NCBI GenBank assembly: GCA_009729775.1
Contig: GCA_009729775.1_4081.1
Reading direction: 5' to 3' (one strand)
DNA length: 64,000 nt
From: Escherichia coli
GTDB taxonomy: Bacteria > Pseudomonadota > Gammaproteobacteria > Enterobacterales > Enterobacteriaceae
The notes under the pieces were generated by a model. The model saw nothing but the letters and a program-made list of their open reading frames with translations, was not told where the DNA came from and searched no databases. Positions 11,702 to 23,598 of this stretch are shown piece by piece; positions within the stretch are counted from its first letter, which is position 1; each line of letters starts with the position of its first letter. The translations under genes and the position numbers were made by a program.

Positions 11702-11709
11702 AATCTTTT

Positions 11710-12294: not shown

Positions 12295-12325
12295 TGTGTT
12301 GACTCCTTGAGTTAATGAAACTATA

Positions 12326-12568
12326 TTACAGTACTTTACTATCAATGGCAACTACTTTTTTTACTTGAACTGCGTGGAATACTTCACGCGTATTTTTAGT
12401 ACTGAATACTTTTGCCGTACCTTGTTCGACCGCAATACGATAGCGACCGTTAACGTCCACCATGTTGATAAAGTCCGGTGTACTGAATGGAGTTACCCGG
12501 CATTTAAGAACGGTTAACAGTTCCACCAGCGTGGTAGTCTCTTTGATACGTTTTTCTAAAGTAATCAT
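12326..12568 (-). CDS. hypothetical early protein (80 aa)
   Basis: Start adjusted to MITLEKR...; TTGACA-N17-TACTAT promoter just upstream. Confidence 0.55.
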   Translation of the reverse strand: MITLEKRIKETTTLVELLTVLKCRVTPFSTPDFINMVDVNGRYRIAVEQGTAKVFSTKNTREVFHAVQVKKVVAIDSKVL

Positions 12569-12625
12569 TTTGTTTTCCCCGTGTTGGTATGCATTCATAG
12601 TACTAAAACATTTGAGTACTGTCAA

Positions 12626-12844
12626 TTAGATAATAGAATATTTCTTTAGTGATAATGCGTCTTCTGTCGGTTGATATTCTACACCGTTCCCGTTATCAAC
12701 CTTAGTGAGTAAACCTTTATCAATGAGTTTTTTGATGGTACGGTTTCCCTGTTGAAAACTAGTGAAGTGTGAATCATTACGAAAGGTATAACCGTGCTTC
12801 ACTGCTTCATCAATAGTTTTCTTTTCGATTTTAGATAATTTCAT
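12626..12844 (-). CDS. hypothetical early protein (72 aa)
   Basis: ORF track; purine-rich RBS. Confidence 0.55.
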   Translation of the reverse strand: MKLSKIEKKTIDEAVKHGYTFRNDSHFTSFQQGNRTIKKLIDKGLLTKVDNGNGVEYQPTEDALSLKKYSII

Positions 12845-12902
12845 TTTGTTTCTCTCTCTCTGTGTTGGTATAGATACATAATACTAAAACATTTGAGTAC
12901 TG

Positions 12903-13157
12903 TCAACGTGATATTAGTTTTATTTTTTTATTGTATTGTTGGTGTTCATATAGATTAATTTTTCCAGTACTCTCGATCACTATTCTATTGTTAGTGTCTA
13001 CATCGATAACACGTAGTTTCCCGTTGCTTAACTTCCTAGGCAATAGACTACCATTAATAAACTCATTAGCAAGCTGTACGGCCTTTGTGATGATTCTCTG
13101 TGGTGCTTTATAGTGTACCCGCAAGATATTATCTTTAGATAGTTGTACCTTCATCAT
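12903..13157 (-). CDS. hypothetical early protein (84 aa)
   Basis: AGGATA RBS. Confidence 0.55.
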   Translation of the reverse strand: MMKVQLSKDNILRVHYKAPQRIITKAVQLANEFINGSLLPRKLSNGKLRVIDVDTNNRIVIESTGKINLYEHQQYNKKIKLISR

Positions 13158-13172
13158 TTTAGTTTATCCTAT

Positions 13173-13197
13173 AAAAAAGGCGGGAACTGAACCCGCC
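13173..13197 (-). terminator. rho-independent terminator
   Basis: GGCGGGTTCAGTTCCCGCC hairpin followed by U-run on the minus strand, just after the stop of 13221-13616. Confidence 0.7.
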
Positions 13198-13220
13198 GTG
13201 TTGTTAGTACTGCAAAGTTA

Positions 13221-13616
13221 TTAGATAACCTGGCGGCGTTTACTGTATACTGTTACACGGTTTCCTTTACGGTCATGACGGATCTCTTTCTGGTTACGAA
13301 TCAGTTCACTTGGACGCTTAAGGTTTGCCAGGTGATCCGCGTGAGTCCATGCATTACTATTCACTTGTACTTGAATATCAGAACCTTCCAAGAAGTCATC
13401 TTGAGCGTTCAGTACTTCAGCCAGTTCTTGAGCTTTCTTCAGTTCTGCTTCAGTAAGTACTGGTTCAGGTGAATTCACAATATCAGAGATCTCTTTGAAC
13501 TGTACCGCCCAGCGTTGTCCTTTCGGTGCATCTTTGCCCATGTCTTTAAATGTTTCACCTTCTTCACGGGCAACGATGCGAGCTTGTTCACGGGTAGCGA
13601 AGAATTTAGTAATCAT
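13221..13616 (-). CDS. hypothetical protein (131 aa), paralog of 25412-25678
   Basis: Shared FATRE-AR-G-TFKDMG and IKHDRKGNRVTVYS blocks. Confidence 0.65.
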   Translation of the reverse strand: MITKFFATREQARIVAREEGETFKDMGKDAPKGQRWAVQFKEISDIVNSPEPVLTEAELKKAQELAEVLNAQDDFLEGSDIQVQVNSNAWTHADHLANLKRPSELIRNQKEIRHDRKGNRVTVYSKRRQVI

Positions 13617-13715
13617 GGTGTACATCCTATTAGTTAAGTTAATTAGTACTACAAGTTAGAGTCTATTATAAAGTACTATCTGGGTAATGTCAAATAGTAC
13701 TTTAAATGGATTCTA

Positions 13716-14039
13716 TTACATGTCTTTCTTACGTTTTACATCGTAGTAACGAACTGTAATTTCTTTGTTGATCTCTTCCTCAATTCTGTGTAGTACTTTC
13801 TCTTTCGGGTTGAAACCTATTACAGTTTCTTTAATGATCTCCAAGCCCGTGTATTCGCCTTGTGTACCGTAACCGTAAGTAAAGGTTTCATGTCCCAGGT
13901 CTTCCCAGCGGTCACCAATCAATGCAGACACGTAGCATGAGTGGTAAGTATTGCCGTGGCTATCAGTCCACCGATTAACTTTAATGTCAAAGGAAGTTAC
14001 AATTTTCATTTCTACTTTCTGGGTAAGGATCATAGCCAT
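13716..14039 (-). CDS. hypothetical protein (107 aa), paralog of 20340-20684
   Basis: Shared GNTY, YGYG and C-terminal VKRKKD motifs. Confidence 0.65.
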   Translation of the reverse strand: MAMILTQKVEMKIVTSFDIKVNRWTDSHGNTYHSCYVSALIGDRWEDLGHETFTYGYGTQGEYTGLEIIKETVIGFNPKEKVLHRIEEEINKEITVRYYDVKRKKDM

Positions 14040-14095
14040 TTTAATTTCTCTCTTTTAGTTAGGAGGGGAACCATTCCCCTGCCTTGATGTAAACT

Positions 14096-14123
14096 ATTAT
14101 ACAGTACTAAGATACTTTGTCAA
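14096..14123 (-). promoter_or_regulatory. sigma70-type early promoter (minus strand)
   Basis: TTGACA-N16-TATAAT on minus strand. Confidence 0.6.
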
Positions 14124-14126
14124 TAC

Positions 14127-14261
14127 TTATTTGTTTTCTTTTCGTAATTTCTTTTCAGCTTCAACTACATTCTTATTTGTGCAAACTACTTCATCGGATA
14201 AATCTAACTTCCATCCAGACAGGGGTTTGGTTTGTTTCTTTGCTGCTTTGTTCGCTTTCAT
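14127..14261 (-). CDS. small Lys-rich protein (44 aa), not in ORF track
   Basis: Hand translation MKANKAAKKQTKPLSGWKLDLSDEVVCTNKNVVEAEKKLRKENK; AAAGGA RBS; own promoter at 14292-14319. Confidence 0.5.
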   Translation of the reverse strand: MKANKAAKKQTKPLSGWKLDLSDEVVCTNKNVVEAEKKLRKENK

Positions 14262-14291
14262 GATGTTTCCTTTTTAATTAAGATGTAAACT

Positions 14292-14319
14292 ATTATACAG
14301 TACTAAGATACTTTGTCAA
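14292..14319 (-). promoter_or_regulatory. sigma70-type early promoter (minus strand)
   Basis: TTGACA-N16-TATAAT, identical cassette to 14096-14123. Confidence 0.6.
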
Positions 14320-14328
14320 TCTATTTTA

Positions 14329-14529
14329 TTAGATAGTTTCCCATTTCATGTTACCCGCTTTACGCTGTGAAACAGGAATAAACATGTTATTAATGTTACT
14401 AATATAACCGACCTGTAAGTCACGCTGTGAACCATATGCCCGACTTGCTGCATTTTTAGCACCGCGTTCTGATTTATAAACGCCGCTGGATACTGTAAAG
14501 CCTACTACACCGAAAGTAAAATGTTTCAT
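14329..14529 (-). CDS. hypothetical early protein (66 aa)
   Basis: AGAGGA RBS; ORF track. Confidence 0.6.
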   Translation of the reverse strand: MKHFTFGVVGFTVSSGVYKSERGAKNAASRAYGSQRDLQVGYISNINNMFIPVSQRKAGNMKWETI

Positions 14530-14595
14530 TTTGTATTCCTCTTTGTGGTTGATGTAAGTATTATACTCGTTTACTTTCTATTGTCAATCTTTTTT

Positions 14596-14668
14596 ATCAG
14601 GGGAGTTTTTCGTATGTCTTACTCCTGGACTACTTAACGGGGTTACTTGTTTCGTTCCCCGTCCTGAT
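14596..14668 (-). promoter_or_regulatory. two-hairpin leader element between tandem promoters (copy 1)
   Basis: CAGGGGAG...CTCCTGG and AACGGGG...CCCCGTC stems; near-identical copy at 25181-25256. Confidence 0.5.
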
Positions 14669-14723
14669 GTAAAACATTATACTTGATTCTAAGTACAATG
14701 CAAGTACTTTTTAAAAATAGTTT

Positions 14724-14888
14724 TCACTTACTCATATTAACAGGCTTAAACGGTGGCAATGTAAGATCATGCGGGGTTAAACTGTCATGCTTTGCCCACA
14801 TACCAGAATCCCTACGGAATAATACCTTATTGTTTTTTATACGATAAAAGTTACCATTATCAGTGTTTTTATACCATACCATTTTCAT
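14724..14888 (-). CDS. small protein (54 aa), not in ORF track
   Basis: Hand translation MKMVWYKNTDNGNFYRIKNNKVLFRRDSGMWAKHDSLTPHDLTLPPFKPVNMSK; AGGAG RBS. Confidence 0.45.
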   Translation of the reverse strand: MKMVWYKNTDNGNFYRIKNNKVLFRRDSGMWAKHDSLTPHDLTLPPFKPVNMSK

Positions 14889-14976
14889 TTACTCCTGGTT
14901 ATGTCGTTATTAAACATTATACGGGGTTATAGATAGTTTGCAATTAGTTTTTCAGTACTAGCCACCAGCATATAAT

Positions 14977-15004
14977 AGATACATTTATGCACCCTGTGGG
15001 CTGA
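14977..15004 (+). repeat. conserved 28-bp intergenic motif (copy 3)
   Basis: AGATACATTTATGCACCCTGTGGGCTGA. Confidence 0.7.
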
Positions 15005-15032
15005 TTTGTTTCTATGCGTATATAATAGCAAA

Positions 15033-15061
15033 GGGACTGACCGGAGTCAATCCCTTTTTTA
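15033..15061. terminator. stem-loop cassette GGGACTGACCGGAGTCAATCCC plus T-run
   Basis: Same cassette as 9740-9779. Confidence 0.55.
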
Positions 15062-15068
15062 ATTCTTT

Positions 15069-15218
15069 TTAAACTTGTTTTGGGTTGCGATATGTGATAG
15101 CGTTCGGGTACATTTGTTTAATGTTATTCCATGCCTGGTTAACATTGTAACCACTTGAGCGAATCAGTTGGTTACTACCGACACCTTGAAACACTACTTC
15201 GAATAAGAATTCTTTCAT
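15069..15218 (-). CDS. small protein (49 aa), not in ORF track
   Basis: Hand translation MKEFLFEVVFQGVGSNQLIR...; GAGGTGA RBS; ATGA overlap with upstream ORF. Confidence 0.45.
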   Translation of the reverse strand: MKEFLFEVVFQGVGSNQLIRSSGYNVNQAWNNIKQMYPNAITYRNPKQV

Positions 15219-15388
15219 GCTTTCACCTCGCGATCTGCTTTACCTTTACGCCACGCTGTTGCTAATTGTTCGCGTTGCCATAAGTCGAGTGATACGTAAA
15301 GTTTTGCATTATCACCCTTCGGATACTCGCCAGTAGTACCAATCCGATAAAACAGATCTTTCAGTACTGATAATTCCACCTGGATCAT
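15215..15388 (-). CDS. small protein (57 aa), not in ORF track
   Basis: Hand translation MIQVELSVLKDLFYRIGTTGEYPKG...; AGGAG RBS; coupled to flanking ORFs by ATGA overlaps. Confidence 0.45.
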   Translation of the reverse strand: MIQVELSVLKDLFYRIGTTGEYPKGDNAKLYVSLDLWQREQLATAWRKGKADREVKA

Positions 15389-15477
15389 TGTATTACTCCT
15401 GATTGTGTTAGTACTTCTACGATGGCATGAATGATCATAAGTACAGCTAACACAACAATCATCGGATTCATTTGCAT
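15385..15477 (-). CDS. small hydrophobic peptide (30 aa), not in ORF track
   Basis: MQMNPMIVVLAVLMIIHAIVEVLTQSGVIQ; AAGGAG RBS 7 nt upstream. Confidence 0.35.
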   Translation of the reverse strand: MQMNPMIVVLAVLMIIHAIVEVLTQSGVIQ

Positions 15478-15496
15478 AAGCTGTACTCCTTATATA

Positions 15497-15709
15497 TTAA
15501 TCTTTCAGCCAATGATCTTGAATGAATTTTTCACAGAATCCCTGTTTCATAGATTCTAACAGGCGTTCACGGTGAGCGGCGGCATATTGCTCAGTACTAT
15601 GCGTTACGCCAGGTTGATAACGTGAAACACCGTCTGGTCCGATATATTGAACATCCCACGGTTTTTCGTTAGTATCAGACCATTTACGAACGATTAGTTG
15701 ACCTTGCAT
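15497..15709 (-). CDS. hypothetical early protein (70 aa)
   Basis: AGAGGA RBS; ORF track. Confidence 0.6.
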   Translation of the reverse strand: MQGQLIVRKWSDTNEKPWDVQYIGPDGVSRYQPGVTHSTEQYAAAHRERLLESMKQGFCEKFIQDHWLKD

Positions 15710-15792
15710 GTTTCTTTCCTCTTAGTGGGGAGAATCATTTCTCCCCTTCATGTAACTTATTATACAGTACTAGATTACATTGTCAATAGTTT

Positions 15793-16116
15793 TTATTCAC
15801 CTTGTTTGAATATAGTTTTCTCCATTGATTCCATGATTGCAACCAATACAGCATGGATCTCACTTAACGCGGCATCACTAAAAGCATTAATGAATAGGCA
15901 ATCATTCTCGCGAATATTTTTAATGTACTTATCAGCAGTGGTTGCGAATTCATTCAACGGCAGATCAAATGCTTTATCCCATAATGGATGGCGTAACTGT
16001 AACAGTACTGGATTATCACGGTCACCAGGTGAGAAAGTGCCTGTAATGAAACATACACCAGGGATACTTTCGAATTGACAACGAACTTCTTTTGTGATAG
16101 TAGTATGAATATACAT
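15793..16116 (-). CDS. hypothetical early protein (107 aa)
   Basis: AGAGGA RBS; ORF track. Confidence 0.6.
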   Translation of the reverse strand: MYIHTTITKEVRCQFESIPGVCFITGTFSPGDRDNPVLLQLRHPLWDKAFDLPLNEFATTADKYIKNIRENDCLFINAFSDAALSEIHAVLVAIMESMEKTIFKQGE

Positions 16117-16143
16117 TTATTTTTATCCTCTATTAAATTAATA

Positions 16144-16332
16144 TTACAGTTTATGAATCAATTCTTTATCCAAGCGATAGCGAACATTATTGATTGTAAC
16201 TGCATTGTTTTTAATGCTACGCTGTACAGGTCCACCAGCAATAACAAACGTTGCCTTATTGCCCCGAACGATGATAGCACTTCCAGGATTACCGAAATCA
16301 TCTTGTACTAAAATGCTTGATAAGTTTTGCAT
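16144..16332 (-). CDS. hypothetical early protein (62 aa)
   Basis: AAGGAAAG RBS; ORF track. Confidence 0.55.
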   Translation of the reverse strand: MQNLSSILVQDDFGNPGSAIIVRGNKATFVIAGGPVQRSIKNNAVTINNVRYRLDKELIHKL

Positions 16333-16411
16333 TTGTCTTTCCTTGTAGTGGGGAGAACTATTCTCCCCTTCATGTAAACAATTATACAGTACTGAAAACT
16401 AATTGCAAGTA

Positions 16412-16768
16412 CTATGATAAAATCATTATAGGATATTCACTATCAATCAGTACTTCAAAACCAAAACTTTCATACCATTCTTTAAGATTAAATGAGTTAT
16501 CTTCTCCCGTATCGCATTCTAAGATGATACAATCTGAATCATCGGCCGCATCAATAAAGGCATTCATTAATTCAGTACCTTCACCGTTACCGCGATTATC
16601 GGGATCAACATAAAGAGAATCAATAAACGCTACACGATCATAATCAAGATCTGGTGCAACAATGCCACGTTTAACAAACCAGTACTGCAATTGTGCTACT
16701 TTGCCTTGTACTTGATAGCCAGTGATCTCACCATTGTCTGTAGTACGCGTGATATGTTGTATACCCAT
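16412..16768 (-). CDS. GNAT-family N-acetyltransferase-like protein (118 aa)
   Basis: RGNGEGTELMNAF matches the acetyl-CoA-binding motif A pattern R-x-x-G-x-G of GNAT enzymes. Confidence 0.5.
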   Translation of the reverse strand: MGIQHITRTTDNGEITGYQVQGKVAQLQYWFVKRGIVAPDLDYDRVAFIDSLYVDPDNRGNGEGTELMNAFIDAADDSDCIILECDTGEDNSFNLKEWYESFGFEVLIDSEYPIMILS

Positions 16769-16831
16769 GATTTCAATCCTCAGTTAAGATATAAAATATT
16801 ATACACTAACTAACAGTACTGTCAATACTTT

Positions 16832-17089
16832 TTATCTCATAGATCTATGCCAACAATTACGCGGTTGACGTTTAAAAATACTATCATGATCCTCCTGGCA
16901 AGTTATGCAGTACTTACATCCCTTAACGGCCTGGCGACGTTTCTCAGGGATTATATCACCGCAGTCGAGGCAATGTATCAGTGATTCTATTTGTGCGTTA
17001 ATTTGCGTTCTAGCGTGGTTAACAGCGGCCTGAATCACTGCGTTAATCTCGTCTTGCTCGGCCCCATCTTTCGTGAATCCTACAGCCAT
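16832..17089 (-). CDS. TraR/DksA-type C4 zinc-finger protein (85 aa)
   Basis: C-x2-C ... C-x2-C (CLDCGDIIPEKRRQAVKGCKYCITCQ) with RR, characteristic of the TraR/DksA zinc finger. Confidence 0.55.
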   Translation of the reverse strand: MAVGFTKDGAEQDEINAVIQAAVNHARTQINAQIESLIHCLDCGDIIPEKRRQAVKGCKYCITCQEDHDSIFKRQPRNCWHRSMR

Positions 17090-17334
17090 TATTTTAACCT
17101 CATTATAAAAATACTATAGTACTGTAATGCGACAATAATATTACTTGTTCTTACTTTTTCCAATCCACATGATACAACATATTCATCCCCATATGTTCGA
17201 AACGAAACACCATGAAAATTTTTATACACTTGCACTTCTAATCATAACCTTTTGTCTAACCAACTGCGTAGAATTATACTACTTTACGCAAATTGATCAA
17301 GTATTGATCAGATCATTTTTTGATCAATATTATA

Positions 17335-17363
17335 CAGTTACATTTGTGCACCCTATGGGTTAG
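17335..17363 (+). repeat. conserved 28-bp intergenic motif (copy 4, variant)
   Basis: CAGTTACATTTGTGCACCCTATGGGTTAG. Confidence 0.6.
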
Positions 17364-17420
17364 TGCCTTGTGTCCGGCTTATGTACTTATTATACAGTAC
17401 TTGATGATATTGTCAATAGT

Positions 17421-17618
17421 TTATTTTAATTTTTTTCTGTCATTGATTAATGCTTTCAGTACTATACTAATAACTTGCAATGATTCATCAATGACTATAA
17501 AATTATTTTCTTTCATTAGATGATAGTTACCATTGATTGTATATTCTAATGAGTACTGTTTACGTTTAATTTTTGATAATGTATCAATTTGTTTTTGTAC
17601 TGATTTCATGCTAATCAT
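17421..17618 (-). CDS. hypothetical protein (65 aa)
   Basis: ORF track only; weak RBS. Confidence 0.35.
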   Translation of the reverse strand: MISMKSVQKQIDTLSKIKRKQYSLEYTINGNYHLMKENNFIVIDESLQVISIVLKALINDRKKLK

Positions 17619-17723
17619 TGTTAAACGTCCTGTAATGCATTCTAACGAGATAAACGGTTTAGTACTGGCATTGTATAGGGTAAATGATTAAAGCCCACCA
17701 GCGTTAACCAGTGGGCTATAATC

Positions 17724-17867
17724 TTACATCTTGCGGATAATCTTAACAGTATCTTTCACCGATTTACCGTCTTGCTGACATTGTTCGATCATCGCGTATT
17801 GTTCTGCGGTCAGATCCTCGCCAGTTTTTGCCAGTACTGCGTCGATGAATGAATCCAGTGCGATCAT
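17724..17867 (-). CDS. small protein (47 aa), not in ORF track
   Basis: Hand translation MIALDSFIDAVLAKTGEDLTAEQYAMIEQCQQDGKSVKDTVKIIRKM; AGAGAG RBS. Confidence 0.45.
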   Translation of the reverse strand: MIALDSFIDAVLAKTGEDLTAEQYAMIEQCQQDGKSVKDTVKIIRKM

Positions 17868-17966
17868 TTTATTTCTCTCTTAGGTTAAGTTAACTACTGT
17901 TGATAAAAGTTATTATACAGTACTATCAAACATTGTCAATAGATTTAATAGTACTGGTAATATATT

Positions 17967-18146
17967 TTAGCGGTAATCGTCGTATGCTTTATTAACCTGG
18001 CGAATGTAACTTTCAAAGGCTTCGTCTACCGTTTCATACTCCCGAACATAATCACCATAGGAAACTACATACATCCCTTTTTGATCTTCAAACGTCATGA
18101 TGATAGAATCCAGTCCGATGATTTCAGTTTTTGCGATAATAGCCAT
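17967..18146 (-). CDS. hypothetical early protein (59 aa)
   Basis: Start adjusted to MAIIAKTEII... Confidence 0.55.
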   Translation of the reverse strand: MAIIAKTEIIGLDSIIMTFEDQKGMYVVSYGDYVREYETVDEAFESYIRQVNKAYDDYR

Positions 18147-18237
18147 TTTAGTATTCCTTAAATTAATATGCGTTGTCTTGATAAAAGTTATTATGCCAGT
18201 ACTATCAAACGTTGTCAATAGTACTGTGATAATATTT

Positions 18238-18450
18238 TTAGTTAATGATAGTCAGTGTAAAATTGTAATCCCCTGCCTGGTATAGTACTTTATCGCCGAA
18301 CGTGCCAACACGTTTCATATTGCAATAGATACCCATAACATTTTTTACATCTTTGATATTCCGAACGCCAGTGATATCCTTGTTGAAATTTTCATGATCA
18401 GAAAATAAAACTTGTTTTGCATTTTTCAGTACAGTGCAGATATTAGCCAT
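18238..18450 (-). CDS. hypothetical early protein (70 aa)
   Basis: AGAGAG RBS; ORF track. Confidence 0.6.
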   Translation of the reverse strand: MANICTVLKNAKQVLFSDHENFNKDITGVRNIKDVKNVMGIYCNMKRVGTFGDKVLYQAGDYNFTLTIIN

Positions 18451-18550
18451 TTCGATTTCTCTCTGTTAGTAGGGAAGTACTGTTACTTCCCGTGCCTTGA
18501 TGTAAACTATTATACAGTACTATAATCTATTGTCAAACTATTTTTTAATA

Positions 18551-18892
18551 TTATTCAAAATCTTCTGGACCGGACTGATAATCATCCTCACCGTATGCAC
18601 TTTCTAACTTCTCGCCAGTGTAATCATCAGTTAGTGAGTCATCCTCATAGTTCACGTCTACGCCCGTGATGTAAAACTGGCTATCGTCTGGATCATTGAA
18701 ATTAATTTTCTGAATGTTTACAATAACTGTATTGATACCCAGGACACAGCCATCAGCCGTTACAAAGTACTGATATTTTTCACATCCACCACTATTGAAA
18801 CCGTAATTGATTTCGGCCCGACCATCATTTAAACGCAGTGCCTGAGCGATGATTTCGTTTTCAAAGTTAGATTGAGCAATTGCAATAGTCAT
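18551..18892 (-). CDS. hypothetical acidic protein (113 aa)
   Basis: AAGGAAA RBS; acidic C-terminus. Confidence 0.6.
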   Translation of the reverse strand: MTIAIAQSNFENEIIAQALRLNDGRAEINYGFNSGGCEKYQYFVTADGCVLGINTVIVNIQKINFNDPDDSQFYITGVDVNYEDDSLTDDYTGEKLESAYGEDDYQSGPEDFE

Positions 18893-19025
18893 GATTCGTT
18901 TCCTTATTACCAGGGGAAACCGTTTCCCCTTGCGATGTAAAACATTATACGCCTATTGATATAGTTTGCAAGTACTTTTTATCAAATACTTTAAAATAGT
19001 TTTCAGTACTCAATCATTATACAAT

Positions 19026-19053
19026 AGATACACTTATGCACCCTGTGGGCTAG
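19026..19053 (+). repeat. conserved 28-bp intergenic motif (copy 5)
   Basis: AGATACACTTATGCACCCTGTGGGCTAG. Confidence 0.7.
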
Positions 19054-19087
19054 TGAGCTATCTCTCAATGAATACATAATAGCAAAA

Positions 19088-19115
19088 TGGCTGACCGAAG
19101 TCAACCACTTTTTTT
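19088..19115. terminator. stem-loop cassette GGCTGACCGAAGTCAACC plus T-run
   Basis: Variant of the cassette that recurs at 45-60 kb. Confidence 0.55.
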
Positions 19116-19252
19116 CATTTATTTTTAGCTTTTAGAATCGCCGCCTTTCGCGTCATGCCTTGCTTGATGTACTCCTTTACTTTCGCTTTACGTGCTTTCG
19201 CTTTATCTGCTTTCGTTTTAGGAGTACTGTAAATTAAACCGTTAGGATTCAT
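19115..19252 (-). CDS. small Lys/Ala-rich protein (45 aa), not in ORF track
   Basis: Hand translation MNPNGLIYSTPKTKADKAKARKAKVKEYIKQGMTRKAAILKAKNK. Confidence 0.4.
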   Translation of the reverse strand: MNPNGLIYSTPKTKADKAKARKAKVKEYIKQGMTRKAAILKAKNK

Positions 19253-19342
19253 TTAAATCACCATAAAGAATAGATAGGTTACTAACAATGCCGCCAGTAC
19301 TGCACCGACCAGGGCCGAACTATAGTAAGCTAATGATTTCAT
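19253..19342 (-). CDS. small hydrophobic peptide (29 aa), not in ORF track
   Basis: MKSLAYYSSALVGAVLAALLVTYLFFMVI; start overlaps stop of 19339-19491 (ATGA). Confidence 0.3.
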   Translation of the reverse strand: MKSLAYYSSALVGAVLAALLVTYLFFMVI

Positions 19343-19491
19343 TTTTTAGCCTGAAAGTAATGTTTAATTTGTGCGGCGGTCAGTGCACAATTACGCAGGA
19401 AGTTTTCTGTATAACTTTTACGAGTACTGAAAGAGTACTGACCTTTCCCGTTACCGATAGTAACATCAAACCGAGCGTTATATTGTTTCAT
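19339..19491 (-). CDS. hypothetical early protein (50 aa)
   Basis: Start adjusted to MKQYNARFDV... Confidence 0.5.
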   Translation of the reverse strand: MKQYNARFDVTIGNGKGQYSFSTRKSYTENFLRNCALTAAQIKHYFQAKK

Positions 19492-19559
19492 TTTGTTTCT
19501 CCTAGTATCGGGGAGAACCATTCCCCCCCTCTATGTAAACAATTATACAGTACTGAAAA

Positions 19560-19880
19560 CTAATTGCAAGTACTTTCTAAGTAATGTTTATAAGCTGAAT
19601 CAACCACTCTTTCGATAACATACGCTAACGGCACGTATCCAACTACATGACTACAATAAAAAGGACTACGATTAGAATCATCGTATGCAAATACTTTTTC
19701 AGGATCTGCATCAATCACATACATATTAACCTTTAAGATGTCTATCTTATCCTGTACAGTAAGCATATTACGCCGCCTTATCAGTACTGGCAACCGGACG
19801 GATACGGGCCATTTCATGGGCTTGTTCCACACTGTAACGCTCATAAAGGCGGCATTCTTCCGGTGTAGGAACAGCATCAA
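19560..19880 (-). CDS. hypothetical protein (up to 106 aa; start uncertain)
   Basis: Track ORF begins at a TTG; internal ATG at 19766 has a GGCGG-type RBS. Confidence 0.45.
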   Translation of the reverse strand: MMLFLHRKNAAFMSVTVWNKPMKWPVSVRLPVLIRRRNMLTVQDKIDILKVNMYVIDADPEKVFAYDDSNRSPFYCSHVVGYVPLAYVIERVVDSAYKHYLESTCN

Positions 19881-19989
19881 TACGTTTCATTGGTTTAATG
19901 ATGCTTTCAACTTCATTCAGTACTTGATTAACGTTCATGGTATAATCCCCAATATAAGCGGCCTAAATCGACCGCTAACGATGTTTTGA

Positions 19990-20259
19990 TTAATAGGTGT
20001 ATGGTTGACGCTCAAACAATGATTGCACGTTGTACGCCCCGCTAATGGGCTTTGCTGGCAAATCAATTTTATATTGTTCACGCTTAAAAATAATAAAACG
20101 GCAATTGTTTTTAACATCAAAATTGATTGAACGTTCCAATAGCTTTCCTTCGTGTACAAATACAAGATAACCGCTTGCTACTTGTTTTGTAGTACTGGTT
20201 GCAACCATTGACCGACGAACATGAGTACCTGCATCGATTAAAGTACTGATATTTTTCAT
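19990..20259 (-). CDS. hypothetical protein (89 aa)
   Basis: AGAGGA RBS; ORF track. Confidence 0.6.
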   Translation of the reverse strand: MKNISTLIDAGTHVRRSMVATSTTKQVASGYLVFVHEGKLLERSINFDVKNNCRFIIFKREQYKIDLPAKPISGAYNVQSLFERQPYTY

Positions 20260-20339
20260 TTTACTATCCTCTTAATTTGATTTAATTTCTTTCCCCTATG
20301 CAGACACTATATCAAAGTATCTGCATAAAGTAAAGCTAA

Positions 20340-20684
20340 TTAAAGATCTTTTTTGCGTTTAACATCAGTTACCGAACTGTAAACAGTGATATTATTGTCA
20401 CGGCAAAAACGGGAAAGATAAGAACCGCGTAAAAACTCTTTATCTTCCATATTAATAACCTTGCTAAATTCTTCCATTGCTACAGTGTCAAAGTGATCCC
20501 CGTATCCATATTGGAACGGCACGTTTACTACTTCAATAAAATTACCATCAATTTCTACGTCTACACTTAAAGAGAAATAAGTGTTACCATATGAAGCCTG
20601 GAACCAACGCCGAGCGGCAATATGTACAACTTCAACAGAAGACAGGTTGATATTTTGTGCTGAGATAGTGTTGATGTTAGCCAT
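20340..20684 (-). CDS. hypothetical protein (114 aa), paralog of 13716-14039
   Basis: GNTY, YGYG, VKRKKD motifs. Confidence 0.65.
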   Translation of the reverse strand: MANINTISAQNINLSSVEVVHIAARRWFQASYGNTYFSLSVDVEIDGNFIEVVNVPFQYGYGDHFDTVAMEEFSKVINMEDKEFLRGSYLSRFCRDNNITVYSSVTDVKRKKDL

Positions 20685-20770
20685 TTTAATTTCCTCTTAG
20701 TTGTCTTGATAAAATCTATTATGCCAGTACTATCAAACTATGTCAATAGTACTGTGATAATAATTTTACT
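20685..20770 (-). promoter_or_regulatory. 85-bp promoter/RBS cassette, duplicated at 20980-21065
   Basis: Near-identical sequence including TTGACA-type promoter, RBS AGAGGAAA and ATG. Confidence 0.6.
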
Positions 20771-20978
20771 TACTTTGCTTTGATGCTTTATGTTGTGCAA
20801 CTGCCATCACTACATCAGCACGAACAAAGTTAGCAACCGTATCAGTATAATATTTGATTGCATCGTCAATATCTGCGAACATCCGATACATTCCGCACCA
20901 TGATACTTTATAACCCGCTTTCACTTGTTCCAGTTTAACCAGTGAATTGTTTACTTTGATTTTTGTAATGATAGCCAT
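20766..20978 (-). CDS. hypothetical protein (70 aa)
   Basis: AGAGGAAA RBS. Confidence 0.6.
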   Translation of the reverse strand: MAIITKIKVNNSLVKLEQVKAGYKVSWCGMYRMFADIDDAIKYYTDTVANFVRADVVMAVAQHKASKQSK

Positions 20979-20979
20979 T

Positions 20980-21065
20980 TTTGTTTCCTCTTAGTTGTCT
21001 TGATAAAATCTATTATGCCAGTACTATCAATCTATGTCAATAGTACTGTGATAATAATTTTACTT
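20980..21065 (-). promoter_or_regulatory. 85-bp promoter/RBS cassette, second copy
   Basis: Direct repeat of 20685-20770. Confidence 0.6.
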
Positions 21066-21203
21066 ACTTTTTGCTTTCTTTATTGCTTCCACCTGGTCGG
21101 CCCACTCTTTACCCCATACTTGAGCGTTATAGTGATACTGACAAAGAGCAACGCCCCGTTTCAAACCAGTGATAGATTTTTTACCACATTGACAAGTTTT
21201 CAT
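21060..21203 (-). CDS. small Cys-rich protein (47 aa), not in ORF track
   Basis: Hand translation MKTCQCGKKSITGLKRGVALCQYHYNAQVWGKEWADQVEAIKKAKSK; AAGAGGAAA RBS; possible Zn-binding C-x-C...C-x-Y-H. Confidence 0.45.
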   Translation of the reverse strand: MKTCQCGKKSITGLKRGVALCQYHYNAQVWGKEWADQVEAIKKAKSK

Positions 21204-21288
21204 TTTTAGTTTCCTCTTAGTGGGGAGAATCATTTCTCCCCTTGATGTAATGTATTATACTTTATCCGATTTACTTTGCAAGTACTTT

Positions 21289-21516
21289 TTAGTTTAATTC
21301 ATCCAGGCATAAGATACGATCTACGCCGAGATCCGTTAAGCTAATGGTTGGCACTTGATAGGTTTCAATGTATTCTACACTAGCCCACTGACCGAACTCA
21401 TTCACCGCCCAGGTATTCATTGCAAAATGTAATTCCGCACCTTTCTTATTAGTAATTACAGCAACAGTAGAAGAATTGCCAGTAGTACCAGATACGCGAG
21501 TGATTACGATAGCCAT
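21289..21516 (-). CDS. hypothetical protein (75 aa)
   Basis: AGGAA RBS; ORF track. Confidence 0.6.
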   Translation of the reverse strand: MAIVITRVSGTTGNSSTVAVITNKKGAELHFAMNTWAVNEFGQWASVEYIETYQVPTISLTDLGVDRILCLDELN

Positions 21517-21586
21517 TGTTTTGATTCCTATTCAGTAGTTGATGTATGTATTATGTCAGTACTTAAAACTATTGTCAAACTATTTT

Positions 21587-21739
21587 TTAAAGACTATCTA
21601 CGATAGCTGCCGTTTCAATAATAGACTTACCTTTTTTTGAACATGCAATAACTGCTTTAAATTCCTTTGATGACCATTCTTTTTTACTGCATACTAACAT
21701 TACTTGCATAGTGAAACAATCCAGTTCATAAGTATTCAT
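21587..21739 (-). CDS. small protein (50 aa), not in ORF track
   Basis: Hand translation MNTYELDCFTMQVMLVCSKKEWSSKEFKAVIACSKKGKSIIETAAIVDSL; GAGGA RBS. Confidence 0.4.
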   Translation of the reverse strand: MNTYELDCFTMQVMLVCSKKEWSSKEFKAVIACSKKGKSIIETAAIVDSL

Positions 21740-21960
21740 CTTTAAATCCTCAGTTAGTTAAGGTGTCTTGCCTTGATGTAACTAATTATACGCCTTTCTC
21801 TTAATCGTGCAAGTACTTTTTATTACTTTTTGCAAAATACTTTAAACGCTCTCAATCGCATTCTAACGGCCTTAACTCCACCAGCTAGGGCGATGCATCA
21901 GATAATCAGTTTAATGCGTTAGAATCGATTCTATGAGGTGCTGACGGTCTGGAATGCAAT

Positions 21961-21993
21961 AAAAACAAAAAAGCCCACTGCTTATAGTGGGCT
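21961..21993 (-). terminator. rho-independent terminator
   Basis: AGCCCACT-loop-AGTGGGCT hairpin with long U-run on the minus strand, after the stop of 22015-22497. Confidence 0.7.
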
Positions 21994-22014
21994 AGTGATT
22001 CAGTACTTTAAATG

Positions 22015-22497
22015 TTATGCTTCAATTTTGCGGTGAGATTCGATCCATTCCTCGCGAGTCATACCGCTTTCTTTGATAGCATCCAGTACTACCGCAATGC
22101 AGTTACCGCGTACAGGAATCAAATGTTCTTCCCCGTTATCAAGGACAACCGTAACACGTTCTTGAATCCATTTTTTAGGCTTAGATTCCGGCTTATCTTC
22201 ACCGTACTTAACCGCCAGGGCTTTATGTGCCATTTCAATAACCACTTCCAGATCTAAACCAGACACCGCCGCCTGAATACTTTCTATTGTTGCTTGCAGT
22301 TCTGCTTCACGGGCTTTTTTCTGTTCTTCCAGTTCTGCTACCTTTTTGGCTTGTAGTTCTTTCGCTTCACTGTAAGCAATGTTAAAATTGTTGCGTACTG
22401 CTTTCATGGTATCATTATCCAGGTCAGCCAGCAATTCAGCAGCAATCACAGTATCGTTAGAAATCAGTGCTTTCAGAAATGATTTTACATTAGCCAT
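22015..22497 (-). CDS. putative H-NS-like nucleoid-associated protein (160 aa)
   Basis: Start adjusted to MANVKSF... (GAGGA RBS); N-terminal coiled-coil-like region, C-terminus LDNGEEHLIPVRGNCIAVVLDAIKESGMTREEW parallels the H-NS DNA-binding core [34 protein letters not shown]. Confidence 0.4.
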   Translation of the reverse strand: MANVKSFLKALISNDTVIAAELLADLDNDTMKAVRNNFNIAYSEAKELQAKKVAELEEQKKAREAELQATIESIQAAVSGLDLEVVIEMAHKALAVKYGEDKPESKPKKWIQERVTVVLDNGEEHLIPVRGNCIAVVLDAIKESGMTREEWIESHRKIEA

Positions 22498-22684
22498 TTT
22501 ATAAATCCTCAATTAAAGTTTAAGTTAGTTTATCAAAGTTTGTTTGACGTGTCCAGTTTTTCATTCGACTTACTGGCGGTCTACTTAATGTTCCCCGTCT
22601 TGATGTAATACATTCTACGCTTTTCCCTGGTAATGTCAACTACTTTTTTAAAACTATTTTCAAAGTATACCAGTACTACGATAA

Positions 22685-22720
22685 TACAAAAACAAAAAAG
22701 CCCACTGTTTAAGGTGGGCT
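22685..22720 (-). terminator. rho-independent terminator
   Basis: AGCCCAC-loop-GTGGGCT hairpin plus U-run on minus strand after 22738-23037. Confidence 0.7.
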
Positions 22721-22737
22721 AGTGATTCAGTACTAGA

Positions 22738-23037
22738 TTATAAACAGTTAATTACTCCGGTGTGCGTTACTTTCTCAGTATCCATCACAGTGACCGAACC
22801 GCGTTTAGTACTGGCATCATAATAAATTGTTGTGCTACCGTTTTTGTCTTCTTCATGGAACGGGCCGTTTTTAAATGCTTCCGGCTGGATCTCTAAATCC
22901 TTTAATACAATCTCGCCAGTTCTTTCATCGGTCATTGCAACAGTGCACTGAATGAATTTTTCACTACTTACATCTAATGACGCATTAACAGCGAAAGAGG
23001 AAACAGATAAAGCCAGGGCGATGATTGCAATTTTCAT
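22738..23037 (-). CDS. secreted small protein with signal peptide (99 aa)
   Basis: N-terminus MKIAIIALALSVSSFAVNAS; AAGGATA RBS. Confidence 0.6.
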   Translation of the reverse strand: MKIAIIALALSVSSFAVNASLDVSSEKFIQCTVAMTDERTGEIVLKDLEIQPEAFKNGPFHEEDKNGSTTIYYDASTKRGSVTVMDTEKVTHTGVINCL

Positions 23038-23121
23038 TTGATTATCCTTAGTTACCAGGGGGAACCGCTCCCCCTTGCTATGTAAAATATTATACAGTAC
23101 TAAAAACTAATTGCAAGTACT

Positions 23122-23358
23122 TTATGATTTTTTATAAAACATTTCGGCAGTGATATTTTTACCCGTTGGCTGTACTTTATCCAGAATTTTTTGATGCCCT
23201 GGCCGTCCAAATGAATATGATCCGTAAACCGTAAACCAGTAGTTACCCTCAGTGTTTACATGTACAGCACAATAGGGAACGCCCCGCGATTCATCACTAG
23301 TAAAGTGTGCTACCGTTCCCGTTACATTCGAAGTCGTTGATTTGATTTGTTCAAGCAT
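23122..23358 (-). CDS. hypothetical protein (78 aa)
   Basis: AAGGAATA RBS; ORF track. Confidence 0.6.
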   Translation of the reverse strand: MLEQIKSTTSNVTGTVAHFTSDESRGVPYCAVHVNTEGNYWFTVYGSYSFGRPGHQKILDKVQPTGKNITAEMFYKKS

Positions 23359-23466
23359 TTTCTTATTCCTTAGTTACCAGGGGAACCGCTCCCCTATGCA
23401 AAACATTATACGCGTTTAAAAACTATTGTCTAGTATTTTAATAAAAAGTATTTGAAAAATAGTTGT

Positions 23467-23495
23467 TGACAAGTGCATCCAGTACTGGCATAATA
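23467..23495 (+). promoter_or_regulatory. plus-strand sigma70-type promoter driving a short non-coding transcript
   Basis: TTGACA-N17-CATAAT on the plus strand; no plus-strand ORF follows. Confidence 0.45.
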
Positions 23496-23519
23496 CTTAC
23501 ATAAAGACGAGATAGTCAC

Positions 23520-23548
23520 TAACCCACAGGGTGCATAGATCCGTCTAT
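23520..23548 (-). repeat. conserved 28-bp intergenic motif (copy 6, inverted orientation)
   Basis: Plus strand reads CTAACCCACAGGGTGCATAGATCCGTCTA, reverse complement of the core. Confidence 0.65.
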
Positions 23549-23565
23549 TAAATGATTCAGTACTG

Positions 23566-23593: not shown

Positions 23594-23598
23594 CTGTA

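What the first reader, a model, noticed from the sequence alone, without database searches (positions are those of the whole stretch)
14127..21739. Unannotated small ORFs (29-57 aa) with good ribosome-binding sites, including a translationally coupled three-gene mini-operon
Hand translation reveals plausible genes missing from the 60-aa-cutoff track: 14127-14261 and 19115-19252 (Lys/Ala-rich, 44-45 aa), 14724-14888, 17724-17867, 21060-21203 (Cys-rich), 21587-21739, and the chain 15385-15477 / 15215-15388 / 15069-15218 linked by ATGA overlaps. Outside this span the same holds for 49792-49968 and 56453-56566. Small proteins of this kind are frequent host-takeover effectors.
Basis: seen in the sequence. 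Interest (0 to 1): 0.4.

Follow-up and report, generated by a model that had tools for sequence, protein, structure and literature searches.

The report
Small early genes, jumbo phage repeat
The short open reading frames are real but ordinary: they are tiny genes of a 121Q/PBECO4-type jumbo coliphage, already listed as hypothetical proteins in related genomes, mostly in the early-expressed terminal-repeat block, and their functions are still unknown.

Summary
All eleven ORFs exist on the minus strand with an ATG and a stop, and both ATGA overlaps in the 15069-15477 chain are real. The window is an Asteriusvirus (121Q/PBECO4-like) jumbo coliphage. The ORFs look like genuine genes. Their Shine-Dalgarno strength equals that of the longer genes (median -6.0 kcal/mol, against +0.4 for same-size antisense ORFs). 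Differences from relatives fall 61/31/134 by codon position, and pN/pS is 0.28 in the claimed frame against 1.0-2.3 in unrelated frames.

"Unannotated" is true only relative to the 60-aa track. Ten have annotated orthologues in deposited relatives, the eleventh (14127-14261) is called on jumbo-phage contigs filed under E. coli, and five are in PHROG families of unknown function.

Nine lie in the region equivalent to the ~21-kb direct terminal repeat. This is an array of about 52 tiny genes, each behind a near-consensus sigma-70 promoter, in cassettes that are gained and lost between relatives. That supports early expression and makes host-takeover or anti-defence roles plausible by analogy with T5 and SPO1. 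No function was found. The two outlying ORFs belong to other gene blocks. Ordinary and already known; low interest.

The parts
14127..14261 (-). ORF A, 44 aa, basic (net +6). An accessory cassette with its own promoter and SD.
   Evidence: ATG and stop, SD AAGGAAA at -5.6 kcal/mol. No hit in deposited phages. 44-aa homologues at 95% and 82% identity occur at the same locus on ~350-kb contigs filed as E. coli. The frame is kept over 20 nt differences, pN/pS is 0.53, and one AAG->CGT change gives K->R.
14282..14320 (-). Promoter of ORF A (TTGACA-N16-TATAAT, 12/12). It is one copy of a 39-bp exact direct repeat; the other copy is at 14086-14124, just downstream of A.
14724..14888 (-). ORF B, 54 aa. 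An accessory cassette.
   Evidence: SD AGGAG at -6.2. Promoter TTGCAA-N16-TATAAT at 14916-14943. Annotated in PBECO4 as AGC34927.1. 6 nt differences give 1 aa change, pN/pS 0.05.
15385..15477 (-). C1, 30-aa single-pass hydrophobic peptide. Second gene of the four-gene operon 15709->15069.
   Evidence: SD AAGGAG at -8.8. Maximum 17-aa hydropathy 2.89. Annotated as 121Q_298, G17_00022 and JP4_CDS0297. pN/pS 0.22. Missing from some relatives.
15215..15388 (-). C2, 57 aa. ATGA overlap with C1. Predicted three-helix protein.
   Evidence: phrog_10572. pN/pS 0.29. Homologues at 35-57% identity across Rak2-like phages of Klebsiella, Yersinia, Pectobacterium, Erwinia, Cronobacter and Serratia; within the annotated terminal repeats of Muenster and CBB. 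AF2 pLDDT 84, no PDB neighbour.
15069..15218 (-). C3, 49 aa. ATGA overlap with C2. Last gene of the operon.
   Evidence: phrog_37188. 23 nt differences give 9 aa changes, pN/pS 0.23. Klebsiella phage homologues at 56-58% identity lie upstream of C2 rather than downstream.
15030..15057 (-). Intrinsic terminator ending the operon that begins at the promoter at 15759-15786 (12/12).
   Evidence: 12-bp stem, UCCG loop.
17089..17235 (-). Its stop overlaps the start of the DksA-like gene (TAATG).
   Evidence: Annotated in relatives (121Q_293 and others). 5 of 6 nt differences are at codon position 3, pN/pS about 0.05.
17724..17867 (-). ORF D, 47 aa, acidic. A monocistronic unit.
   Evidence: Promoter 12/12 at 17912-17939. 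Terminator-like hairpin at 17690-17716. phrog_34103. Annotated as 121Q_291. pN/pS 0.09.
19339..19491 (-). E0, true length 50 aa. First gene of a second coupled mini-operon. The 60-aa ORF to 19521 starts at an ATG in the loop of the 5'-UTR hairpin.
   Evidence: Relatives annotate 153 nt. SD AGGAGA precedes the ATG at 19491. pN/pS about 0.1. Hairpin at 19510-19529.
19253..19342 (-). ATGA overlap with E0; its stop abuts the ATG of E.
   Evidence: Annotated in JP4, phAPEC6, fEgEco12 and WPEC3. pN/pS 0.26. Hydropathy 2.52.
19115..19252 (-). ORF E, 45 aa, very basic (net +12, pI 10.6). Last gene of the mini-operon, followed by the terminator at 19084-19111.
   Evidence: phrog_29913. Annotated as 121Q_287. 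pN/pS 0.16-0.19 with true orthologues. Terminator.
21060..21203 (-). ORF F, 47 aa, with C4, C6, C21 and H24.
   Evidence: Promoter at 21254-21281, 5'-UTR hairpin at 21222-21241, SD GAGGAAA. Annotated as 121Q_280. 16 nt differences give 3 aa changes, pN/pS 0.12. 86% identical homologue in the rV5-like phage EmilieFrey. AF2 pLDDT 83: short hairpin plus two helices, no PDB neighbour.
21587..21739 (-). ORF G, 50 aa.
   Evidence: Promoter TTGCAC-N17-TATAAT at 21785-21812. SD GAGGA at -5.9. Annotated as 121Q_278 and G17_00041. 22 nt differences give 10 aa changes, pN/pS 0.32.
49792..49968 (-). ORF H, 58 aa. Lies inside a tightly packed conserved operon outside the terminal repeat.
   Evidence: phrog_38182. 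Annotated as 121Q_213 and JP4_CDS0193. Homologues at 50-58% identity in jumbo phages EJP2, SE_PL and Erwinia Hallingskeid.
56453..56566 (-). ORF I, 37-aa single-pass membrane peptide. Lies between two intrinsic terminators (56606-56629 and 56423-45) in the late/structural region.
   Evidence: Annotated as PBECO4 gp324, phAPEC6 gp036c and 121Q_200. Only 2 nt differences, both synonymous. Neighbours gp035c and gp037c are virion proteins by MS, while gp036c is not listed (PMC7247149). A TATAAATA late-type promoter follows at 56407-56414.
8290..28110 (-). Region equivalent to the long direct terminal repeat. About 52 minus-strand genes (median about 72 aa) and about 36 sigma-70-type promoters.
   Evidence: The vB_Ec-M-J annotated DTR (1-21525) maps to window 28110 down to about 8290. 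DTRs of 20,993 bp (fEgEco12, confirmed by restriction mapping; PMC13070987) and 20,668 bp (Sharanji). Promoter counts. Gene sizes.

Best explanation
The ORFs are genuine small protein-coding genes of an Asteriusvirus-type jumbo coliphage.

Nine of the eleven belong to a dense, one-directional array of about 52 tiny genes. This array fills the region equivalent to the phage's ~21-kb direct terminal repeat. There, almost every gene or two-to-four-gene operon sits in a compact cassette. A cassette has an AT-rich tract, a near-consensus sigma-70 promoter (TTGACA-N16/17-TATAAT), often a G-run/C-run 5'-UTR hairpin, a Shine-Dalgarno site and the gene. Operons end in an intrinsic terminator.

Inferred mechanism: unmodified host RNA polymerase transcribes these units as soon as the DNA enters the cell. 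Translation starts at strong SD sites, or by stop-start coupling (ATGA, TAAATG, TAATG) within operons. The products act early as accessory factors, for example in host takeover, anti-defence or superinfection exclusion.

As to what the proteins are:
- C1 and E2 are single-pass membrane peptides.
- E is a very basic peptide.
- F is a possible zinc-knuckle protein with two helices.
- C2 is a three-helix protein conserved across the whole Rak2-like clade.
- A and B are dispensable cassettes gained or lost by recombination between the repeated promoters.

H and I are also real genes but belong elsewhere: H to a conserved operon, and I, a membrane peptide, to the late structural region.

Shown: ORF integrity, SD strength, promoters and terminators by consensus, purifying selection, placement in the repeat by homology, and cassette polymorphism. 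Inferred: early timing, and every statement about function.
For: - ORFs and overlaps are present.
- SD strength equals that of the long genes and is far above background.
- There are 9 perfect and 5 one-mismatch sigma-70 promoters in 10 kb, all on the minus strand. At up to 2 mismatches the window holds 86 minus-strand and 20 plus-strand sites.
- Variable sites fall 61/31/134 by codon position (chi-square p = 7e-17). pN/pS is 0.28 in frame against 1.0-2.3 in frames that do not share wobble positions. Per-gene values are 0.05-0.32, with E at 0.16-0.19 and E0 at about 0.1 and A at 0.53.
- Orthologues are annotated independently by several pipelines, and five are in PHROG families.
- C2 and H are conserved at 35-58% identity in other genera.
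- F is shared at 86% identity with an unrelated rV5-like phage.
- Terminal-repeat placement rests.
- Five cassettes occur in eight presence/absence combinations in the slot holding A and B, and A is flanked by a 39-bp exact promoter repeat.
- The literature already reads RpoD-promoter blocks of short ORFs in the Rak2-like phage CBB, extending into its terminal repeat, as early host-takeover genes (PMC5259590).
Against: - There is no transcript, ribosome or peptide evidence for any of these genes. The only proteomics in this phage group is of virions, and none of these proteins is listed there.
- No similarity to any protein of known function was found in Pfam, NCBIfam, PHROGs, PDB sequences or PDB folds.
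- ORF A has weak selection evidence (pN/pS 0.53, three variants only).
- ORF I rests on two synonymous differences and has no recognisable promoter of its own.
- The 5'-UTR hairpin shows almost no covariation.
- The C2-C3 coupling is not conserved in Klebsiella phages, so the mini-operon is not an obligate functional unit.
- The terminal-repeat boundaries are placed by homology, not measured for this genome.
Confidence: 0.8

Rival explanations
1. Some or all of the ORFs are chance reading frames in regulatory spacer DNA. Gene callers propagate them, and they look conserved only because the DNA of close relatives is similar.
For: Chance ORFs of this length are common in this AT-rich DNA: 39 antisense ATG ORFs of 25-60 aa occur in the block. 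Pipelines do call spurious ORFs here, for example 33-34-aa TTG ORFs laid over a repeated non-coding element. ORF I has only two informative differences, and ORF A has pN/pS 0.53.
Against: Substitutions are concentrated at codon position 3, and pN/pS is low only in the claimed frame and its wobble-sharing antisense frame, which contains stops. SD strength matches real genes. Each ORF fits exactly between a promoter and the next unit. C2, C3, H and F keep their frame at 35-86% protein identity in other genera or phage types.
Confidence: 0.04
2. The shortest coupled ORFs (C1, E2, perhaps E0) work as leader or coupling ORFs. Their translation, not their peptide product, sets the expression of the downstream genes.
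For: They overlap or abut the next gene (ATGA, TAAATG). E2 and E have weak SD sites of their own, at -2.5 and -2.8, so their translation probably depends on upstream ribosomes. C1 is absent from several relatives without loss of C2 and C3.
Against: The peptide sequences are themselves conserved (pN/pS 0.22 and 0.26). Both keep a 17-20-residue hydrophobic segment typical of a membrane anchor. Similar 35-42-aa single-TM genes stand alone with their own RBS in the terminal repeat of Klebsiella phage Muenster.
Confidence: 0.07
3. The variable cassettes, A and B in particular, are translated ORFans. They persist through promoter-mediated recombination, like PeSL-type mobile cassettes, and contribute little or nothing to infection. 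They are not host-directed effectors.
For: A and B are each present in only a minority of relatives. The slot that holds them shows eight cassette combinations. A is bounded by a 39-bp exact promoter repeat. A is weakly constrained, especially in its N-terminal third. Neither has a family or domain match.
Against: B shows 1 aa change for 6 nt differences. A's C-terminal 30 residues are nearly invariant, including a three-nucleotide conservative K->R codon change. Both keep strong promoters and SD sites, which would decay without selection.
Confidence: 0.12

Closest known systems
Annotated hypothetical proteins of Asteriusvirus relatives: 121Q genes 300/299/298, 291, 287, 280, 278, 213, 200; PBECO4 AGC34927 and gp324; PHROGs 37188, 10572, 34103, 29913, 38182
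   Same: Direct orthologues at 80-100% protein identity, at the same positions with the same overlaps.
   Different: Nothing of substance. This genome carries a cassette combination (B, g66, A) not seen in the 18 relatives compared. ORF A is missing from the deposited phage records and is found only on phage contigs filed under E. coli.
Host-takeover module in the terminal redundancy of Bacillus phage SPO1 (PMC6873191, PMC10531801)
   Same: A cluster of about two dozen or more mostly small genes in a long terminal repeat, driven by strong host-sigma promoters.
   Different: No sequence similarity. Different host and phage lineage. The takeover activities known for SPO1 proteins are untested here.
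Pre-early genes in the ~10-kb terminal repeat (first-step-transfer DNA) of phage T5/BF23 (bioRxiv 10.64898/2026.04.02.716235; PMC10644984)
   Same: Small genes inside a long direct terminal repeat, read by host sigma-70 RNA polymerase at the very start of infection.
   Different: Two-step DNA transfer is not known for Asteriusvirus. No homology to A1, A2, Dmp or other T5 pre-early proteins was seen in the family searches.
PeSL (promoter-early stem-loop) cassettes of the hyperplastic regions of T4-type phages (PMC2839356, PMC4122927)
   Same: The intergenic units have an AT-rich tract, a near-perfect sigma-70 promoter, a G-run/C-run stem-loop and SD-ATG. They flank ORFans that differ between close relatives, with breakpoints compatible with recombination between the repeats.
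   Different: Here the stem-loop usually lies in the transcribed 5' UTR without a U-tract, so terminator function is doubtful. Separate canonical terminators end the operons. Mini-circle formation and promoter or terminator activity are untested. The phage is not a T4-type phage in the strict sense.
Predicted early region of the Rak2-like phage vB_PcaM_CBB (PMC5259590)
   Same: The same clade. RpoD-like promoters are concentrated on blocks of short hypothetical ORFs and extend into the terminal repeat. The authors interpret these as early host-takeover genes. A C2 homologue lies in CBB's repeat.
   Different: Only 18 such promoters were reported for all of CBB, whereas this window has about 36 in 20 kb at up to 2 mismatches. 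Most of the individual genes are not shared.

Membership tests
Bona fide protein-coding gene | Intact ORF with a start codon and a ribosome-binding site or translational coupling | tested here: met
   Ten of twelve have SD at or below -5 kcal/mol; the other two (E, E2) are stop-start coupled.
Bona fide protein-coding gene | Frame-specific purifying selection in relatives | tested here: met
   Pooled pN/pS is 0.28, and codon-position counts are 61/31/134. Weak for A (0.53). Uninformative for I (2 differences). H was uninformative (1 difference) but is supported by distant homologues.
Bona fide protein-coding gene | Direct evidence of translation (peptides or ribosome footprints) | not testable with these tools
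   Only virion proteomes exist for this group, and none of these proteins is listed there.
PHROG families 37188, 10572, 34103, 29913, 38182 | Full-length significant match to the family HMM | tested here: met
   E-values 6e-27 to 5e-45 for C3, C2, D, E and H. A, B, C1, F and G had no PHROG match. E2 and I were not scanned.
PeSL-type regulatory cassette (T4-type phages) | Near-consensus sigma-70 promoter with an AT-rich upstream tract, ending in SD and ATG | tested here: met
PeSL-type regulatory cassette (T4-type phages) | Associated stable stem-loop with G and C tracts | tested here: met
   About 15 copies with folding energy of -12 to -16 kcal/mol. The sequence is conserved but with almost no covariation.
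PeSL-type regulatory cassette (T4-type phages) | Flanks ORFans that are inserted, deleted or replaced between close relatives | tested here: met
   (five cassettes, eight combinations). (39-bp exact repeat flanking A).
PeSL-type regulatory cassette (T4-type phages) | Stem-loop acts as a terminator or attenuator; recombination yields mini-circles | not testable with these tools
   Needs reporter assays and inverse PCR, as in PMC2839356. Most hairpins here lack a U-tract.
Terminal-repeat host-takeover module (SPO1 / T5 pre-early type) | Located inside the long direct terminal repeat | tested here: met
   By homology to the annotated or measured repeats of vB_Ec-M-J, fEgEco12, Sharanji and Muenster. 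Not measured for this genome.
Terminal-repeat host-takeover module (SPO1 / T5 pre-early type) | Sequence or fold similarity to characterised takeover proteins | tested here: not met
   No hits above threshold in Pfam, NCBIfam or known-function PHROGs. For D and F, none among PDB sequences; for C2 and F, none among PDB folds.
Terminal-repeat host-takeover module (SPO1 / T5 pre-early type) | Expression in the first minutes and shut-off or redirection of host functions | not testable with these tools
   Needs time-course RNA-seq and expression or deletion phenotypes.
Zinc-finger / zinc-knuckle protein (ORF F) | Four invariant metal ligands in a knuckle-plus-helix geometry | tested here: inconclusive
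   C4, C21 and H24 are invariant, but C6 is Tyr in one cluster of 17 sequences. The Pfam C2HC match is far below threshold. The AF2 model shows a short hairpin plus helices, with no structural neighbour.

The most novel reading that the evidence does not exclude
The terminal-repeat block of Asteriusvirus may be a T5/SPO1-style first-wave host-takeover and anti-defence arsenal, built from recombining promoter cassettes. In that reading, the tiny proteins flagged here would be previously uncharacterised effectors with specific host targets. Candidates are the clade-wide three-helix C2, the membrane peptides C1 and E2 paired with soluble partners in coupled mini-operons, the basic peptide E, and the Cys/His protein F, which is also carried by rV5-like phages.
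Probability: 0.35. Interest if true: 0.45.

Novelty: already known. Interest (0 to 1): 0.15.

Why it matters
As a discovery it matters little. The genes are already in public annotations as hypothetical proteins, and blocks of tiny early genes behind host-type promoters are a textbook feature of large virulent phages.

Practically, it shows that a 60-aa cut-off hides about 40% of the genes in this part of the genome (13 of about 31 between 14 and 22 kb). It also shows that hairpin-loop ATGs inflate some ORFs.

If anyone wants to mine jumbo coliphages for new host-targeting or anti-defence peptides, the best-supported starting points are C2, which is conserved across the Rak2-like clade and always found in the terminal repeat where one is annotated, F, which is shared with an unrelated phage type, and the two coupled mini-operons.

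Tried and rejected
- Paralogy of D and G (a shared helix-turn-helix-like "GKS" motif). A weak tblastn hit between D and the 121Q version of G (27% identity, E = 0.002 in a tiny database) was not reproduced by direct BLASTP of the window's D and G. Dropped.
- Domain and family searches for ten proteins in Pfam (E up to 1), NCBIfam and PHROGs gave only sub-threshold noise or unknown-function PHROGs. Examples are Radical_SAM_N2, T3SS_ATPase_C, ZNF512_C2HC, Clr5, aureocin A53 and a KPN_01571-family 30-mer.
- PDB sequence searches for F and D found nothing meaningful.
- AF2 plus Foldseek against the PDB for F and C2 gave confident small models but no neighbour with E < 1.
- A scan of IMG/VR for more relatives around the acetyltransferase returned only 121Q itself.
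- A tblastn search for ORF A in deposited phages found no match. It was rescued by the large protein collection.
- Covariation support for the 5'-UTR hairpin: only one of six pairs shows compensatory changes, so the structure is not claimed as proven.
- An Rfam scan of the whole window found no family.
- Paralogy among the block's ~52 proteins: only three weak pairs, none involving the flagged ORFs.
- The CMSTMSU record (UNVERIFIED) shows frameshifts in several of these genes. I treated these as sequence-quality artefacts and excluded the record.

Full report
**What the window is.** A megablast of 14000-22000 finds 97 phage records. The best are the ~350-kb jumbo coliphages SP27, JP4, E9.1, fEgEco12, PBECO4 and 121Q (genus Asteriusvirus, Rak2-like), at about 90% identity in patchy pieces. 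No record is identical, so relatives at a useful distance are available for testing conservation.

**Observation.** All eleven coordinate pairs give intact minus-strand ORFs with an ATG and a stop. The chain 15385-15477 / 15215-15388 / 15069-15218 is linked by two true ATGA overlaps. Length alone is not evidence here, because 39 antisense ATG ORFs of 25-60 aa occur in the same block.

**Is it more than chance? Three independent tests say yes.**
1. Ribosome-binding sites. Duplex energy with the 16S 3' end has a median of -6.0 kcal/mol for the candidates. That is identical to the 41 minus-strand ORFs of 60 aa or more. Same-size antisense ORFs give +0.4 and all minus-strand ATGs give -1.5 (p about 1e-6). 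The two weak sites (E and the extra gene E2) are exactly those that overlap or abut the preceding stop codon.
2. Promoters. In 13-23 kb there are nine perfect TTGACA-N16/17-TATAAT sites and five with one mismatch, all on the minus strand. At up to two mismatches the window has 86 minus-strand and 20 plus-strand sites. A, B, D, F and G each have their own promoter. The C chain shares the promoter at 15759-15786 with the upstream 70-aa gene and ends at the terminator at 15030-15057. E lies in a second operon, from the promoter at 19542-19569 to the terminator at 19084-19111.
3. Selection. Orthologues were taken from up to twelve relatives. Variable sites fall 61/31/134 by codon position (p = 7e-17). 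pN/pS is 0.28 in the claimed frame, against 1.0-2.3 in frames that do not share wobble positions. Per gene: B 0.05, D 0.09, F 0.12 (16 nt differences, 3 aa), C1 0.22, C3 0.23, C2 0.29, G 0.32, and E 0.16-0.19 once non-orthologous N-termini are excluded.

**ORF A.** It has no match in deposited phages. It does have 44-aa homologues at 95% and 82% identity, at the same locus on ~350-kb contigs filed as E. coli. The frame survives 20 nt differences, including an AAG->CGT Lys->Arg codon. pN/pS is only 0.53, and the N-terminal third evolves quickly.

**ORFs H and I.** H differs by a single synonymous change among close relatives but has 50-58% identical homologues in other jumbo-phage genera. I is nearly invariant, with two synonymous differences. 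It is the least tested.

**Annotation status.** The ORFs are missing only from the 60-aa track. The orthologues annotated as hypothetical proteins are:
- 121Q genes 300/299/298 (the chain), 291 (D), 287 (E), 280 (F), 278 (G), 213 (H) and 200 (I).
- PBECO4 AGC34927 (B) and gp324 (I).
- phAPEC6 gp036c (I).

Equivalents are also called in JP4, G17, SP27, fEgEco12, WPEC3, Turkey5 and vB_Ec-M-J. C3, C2, D, E and H fall in PHROGs 37188, 10572, 34103, 29913 and 38182, all of unknown function.

**Genomic context.**
- The annotated 21,525-bp direct terminal repeat of vB_Ec-M-J aligns to window 28,110 down to about 8,290.
- The fEgEco12 orthologues lie at 1.8-15.1 kb, inside its 20,993-bp repeat confirmed by restriction mapping. 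Sharanji has a 20,668-bp repeat.
- The homologous genome end at about 28.1 kb coincides with the GC-skew reversal.
- All nine in-span ORFs therefore sit in the terminal-repeat equivalent and are transcribed inward from the end.
- The block holds about 52 genes with a median of about 72 aa, so the flagged ORFs are the lower tail of a continuous size distribution, not a special class.

**Cassette architecture.** The intergenic units have an AT-rich tract, a near-perfect sigma-70 promoter, in about 15 cases a GGGGAGAA...TTCTCCCC-type hairpin (-12 to -16 kcal/mol), then SD and ATG. They closely resemble the PeSL cassettes of T4-type hyperplastic regions (PMC2839356, PMC4122927). The hairpin copies hardly covary, and most lack a U-tract.

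As with PeSLs, gene content is polymorphic. The slot between C3 and the 107-aa gene holds five cassettes (B, g66, x91, A, x60). They always appear in that order, but in eight presence/absence combinations across the genomes compared. The window's B-g66-A combination is not seen in any relative. A is bracketed by a 39-bp exact repeat of the promoter.

**What the proteins are.**
- C1, E2 and I are single-pass hydrophobic peptides (hydropathy 2.5-2.9).
- E is very basic (net +12).
- F has C4, C6, C21 and H24. Three are invariant, and C6 is Tyr in one cluster. It models at pLDDT 83 as a short hairpin plus two helices. It recurs at 86% identity in the rV5-like phage EmilieFrey, among T7 gp0.6- and gp1.1-like small genes.
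- C2 models as three helices at pLDDT 84. It is conserved at 35-57% identity in Klebsiella, Yersinia, Pectobacterium, Erwinia, Cronobacter and Serratia jumbo phages, and it lies inside the annotated terminal repeats of Muenster and CBB.
- C3 reaches Klebsiella phages. There it lies upstream of C2 with a gene between them, so the coupled arrangement is genus-specific.
- No protein matches Pfam or NCBIfam at a credible level. D and F have no PDB sequence match, and C2 and F have no PDB fold match.

**H and I are different cases.** H is packed inside a conserved operon outside the repeat. I lies between two intrinsic terminators among virion-protein genes and just upstream of a TATAAATA late-type promoter. 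Its neighbours, but not I itself, were found in phAPEC6 virions.

**Interpretation.**
- Shown: these are real, selected, well-signalled small genes, and nine of them sit in the terminal-repeat block with host-type promoters.
- Inferred by analogy only: their roles. The analogies are T5 pre-early genes (bioRxiv 10.64898/2026.04.02.716235; PMC10644984), the SPO1 host-takeover module (PMC6873191; PMC10531801) and the authors' own reading of CBB (PMC5259590).

- E2 (19253-19342, 29 aa) is a missed gene. Together with E0 and E it forms a second coupled three-gene mini-operon.
- E0 is really 50 aa, starting at 19491. The 60-aa reading starts at an ATG in the loop of the 5'-UTR hairpin.
- The same applies to the alternative 57-aa reading of F from 21233.
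- A 48-aa GTG-start gene (17089-17235) overlaps the DksA-like gene's start and is clearly coding.
- In all, 13 of about 31 genes between 14 and 22 kb are shorter than 60 aa.

**Verdict.** The claim that these genes are unannotated or novel is not supported, and their function is unresolved. This is an ordinary, already catalogued feature of this phage group, so interest is low.

Noticed in passing
window minus strand, cores at 9707-9718, 11625-11636, 14989-15000, 17348-17359, 19038-19049, 25338-25349; plus-strand copy 23523-23534: A repeated ~110-nt intergenic element. Most copies follow an operon terminator hairpin (AAAAAAGGGATTGAC-TCCG-GTCAGTCCCTTT). All contain the invariant 12-mer CCCAYAGGGTGC, followed about 10 nt later by a -10-like box. 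There are 8 hits against 0.11 expected, and no Rfam match. Some pipelines-34-aa TTG ORFs on it (sharing 'AHRVHKCIY'), which are probably spurious. It may be an activator-dependent (middle-type) promoter or a protein-binding site.
   Followed up: partly
window ~26400-28110: By homology to vB_Ec-M-J position 1, the physical genome end maps to about 28,110. This is exactly where the GC skew and gene orientation reverse. The adjoining ~1.7 kb has no annotated genes in the relative and only poor ORFs here.
   Followed up: partly
window 21233 and 19521 (minus strand): ATG codons sit in the loop of the conserved 5'-UTR hairpin (GGGGAGAA-ATGA-TTCTCCCC). They create false N-terminal extensions, so F reads as 57 aa instead of 47 and E0 as 60 instead of 50. 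Some database entries use the long forms.
   Followed up: yes
window 17089-17235 (-): A 48-aa GTG-start gene whose stop overlaps the start of the DksA/TraR-like zinc-finger gene (TAATG).
   Followed up: yes
window 12903-13157 (-): The orthologue of this 84-aa gene carries a precomputed Pfam ParE_like (PF24732) hit. That would be a toxin-like fold in the early block.
   Followed up: no
window 22738-23037 (-): A 99-aa protein with an N-terminal signal-peptide-like sequence. Its orthologue in fEgEco12 is annotated 'protein spackle' (a superinfection-exclusion factor in T4). This is consistent with exclusion functions being encoded in the block.
   Followed up: no
L024 (MZ501063, phage EmilieFrey/Bas61) 2501-2659: ORF F has an 86% identical homologue in an unrelated ~147-kb rV5-like coliphage. 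There it sits in a run of tiny genes that includes T7 gp0.6-like and gp1.1-like proteins. This points to horizontal exchange of small early genes between coliphage lineages.
   Followed up: partly
NC_019526.1 (Klebsiella phage RaK2) 238064-238189: The C3 homologue (58% identity) has no annotated feature in the RaK2 reference genome. This is a genuine example of a small gene missing from a public annotation.
   Followed up: no
window 13716-14039 vs 20340-20684, and 13221-13616 vs 25412-25678 (-): Paralogous gene pairs within the terminal-repeat block, at 31% and 34% identity.
   Followed up: no
L015 (MH494197, phage CMSTMSU): This UNVERIFIED record shows frameshifts in several otherwise conserved small genes (C2, E, F) and sparse annotation. 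It is probably a sequence-quality problem rather than biology.
   Followed up: partly
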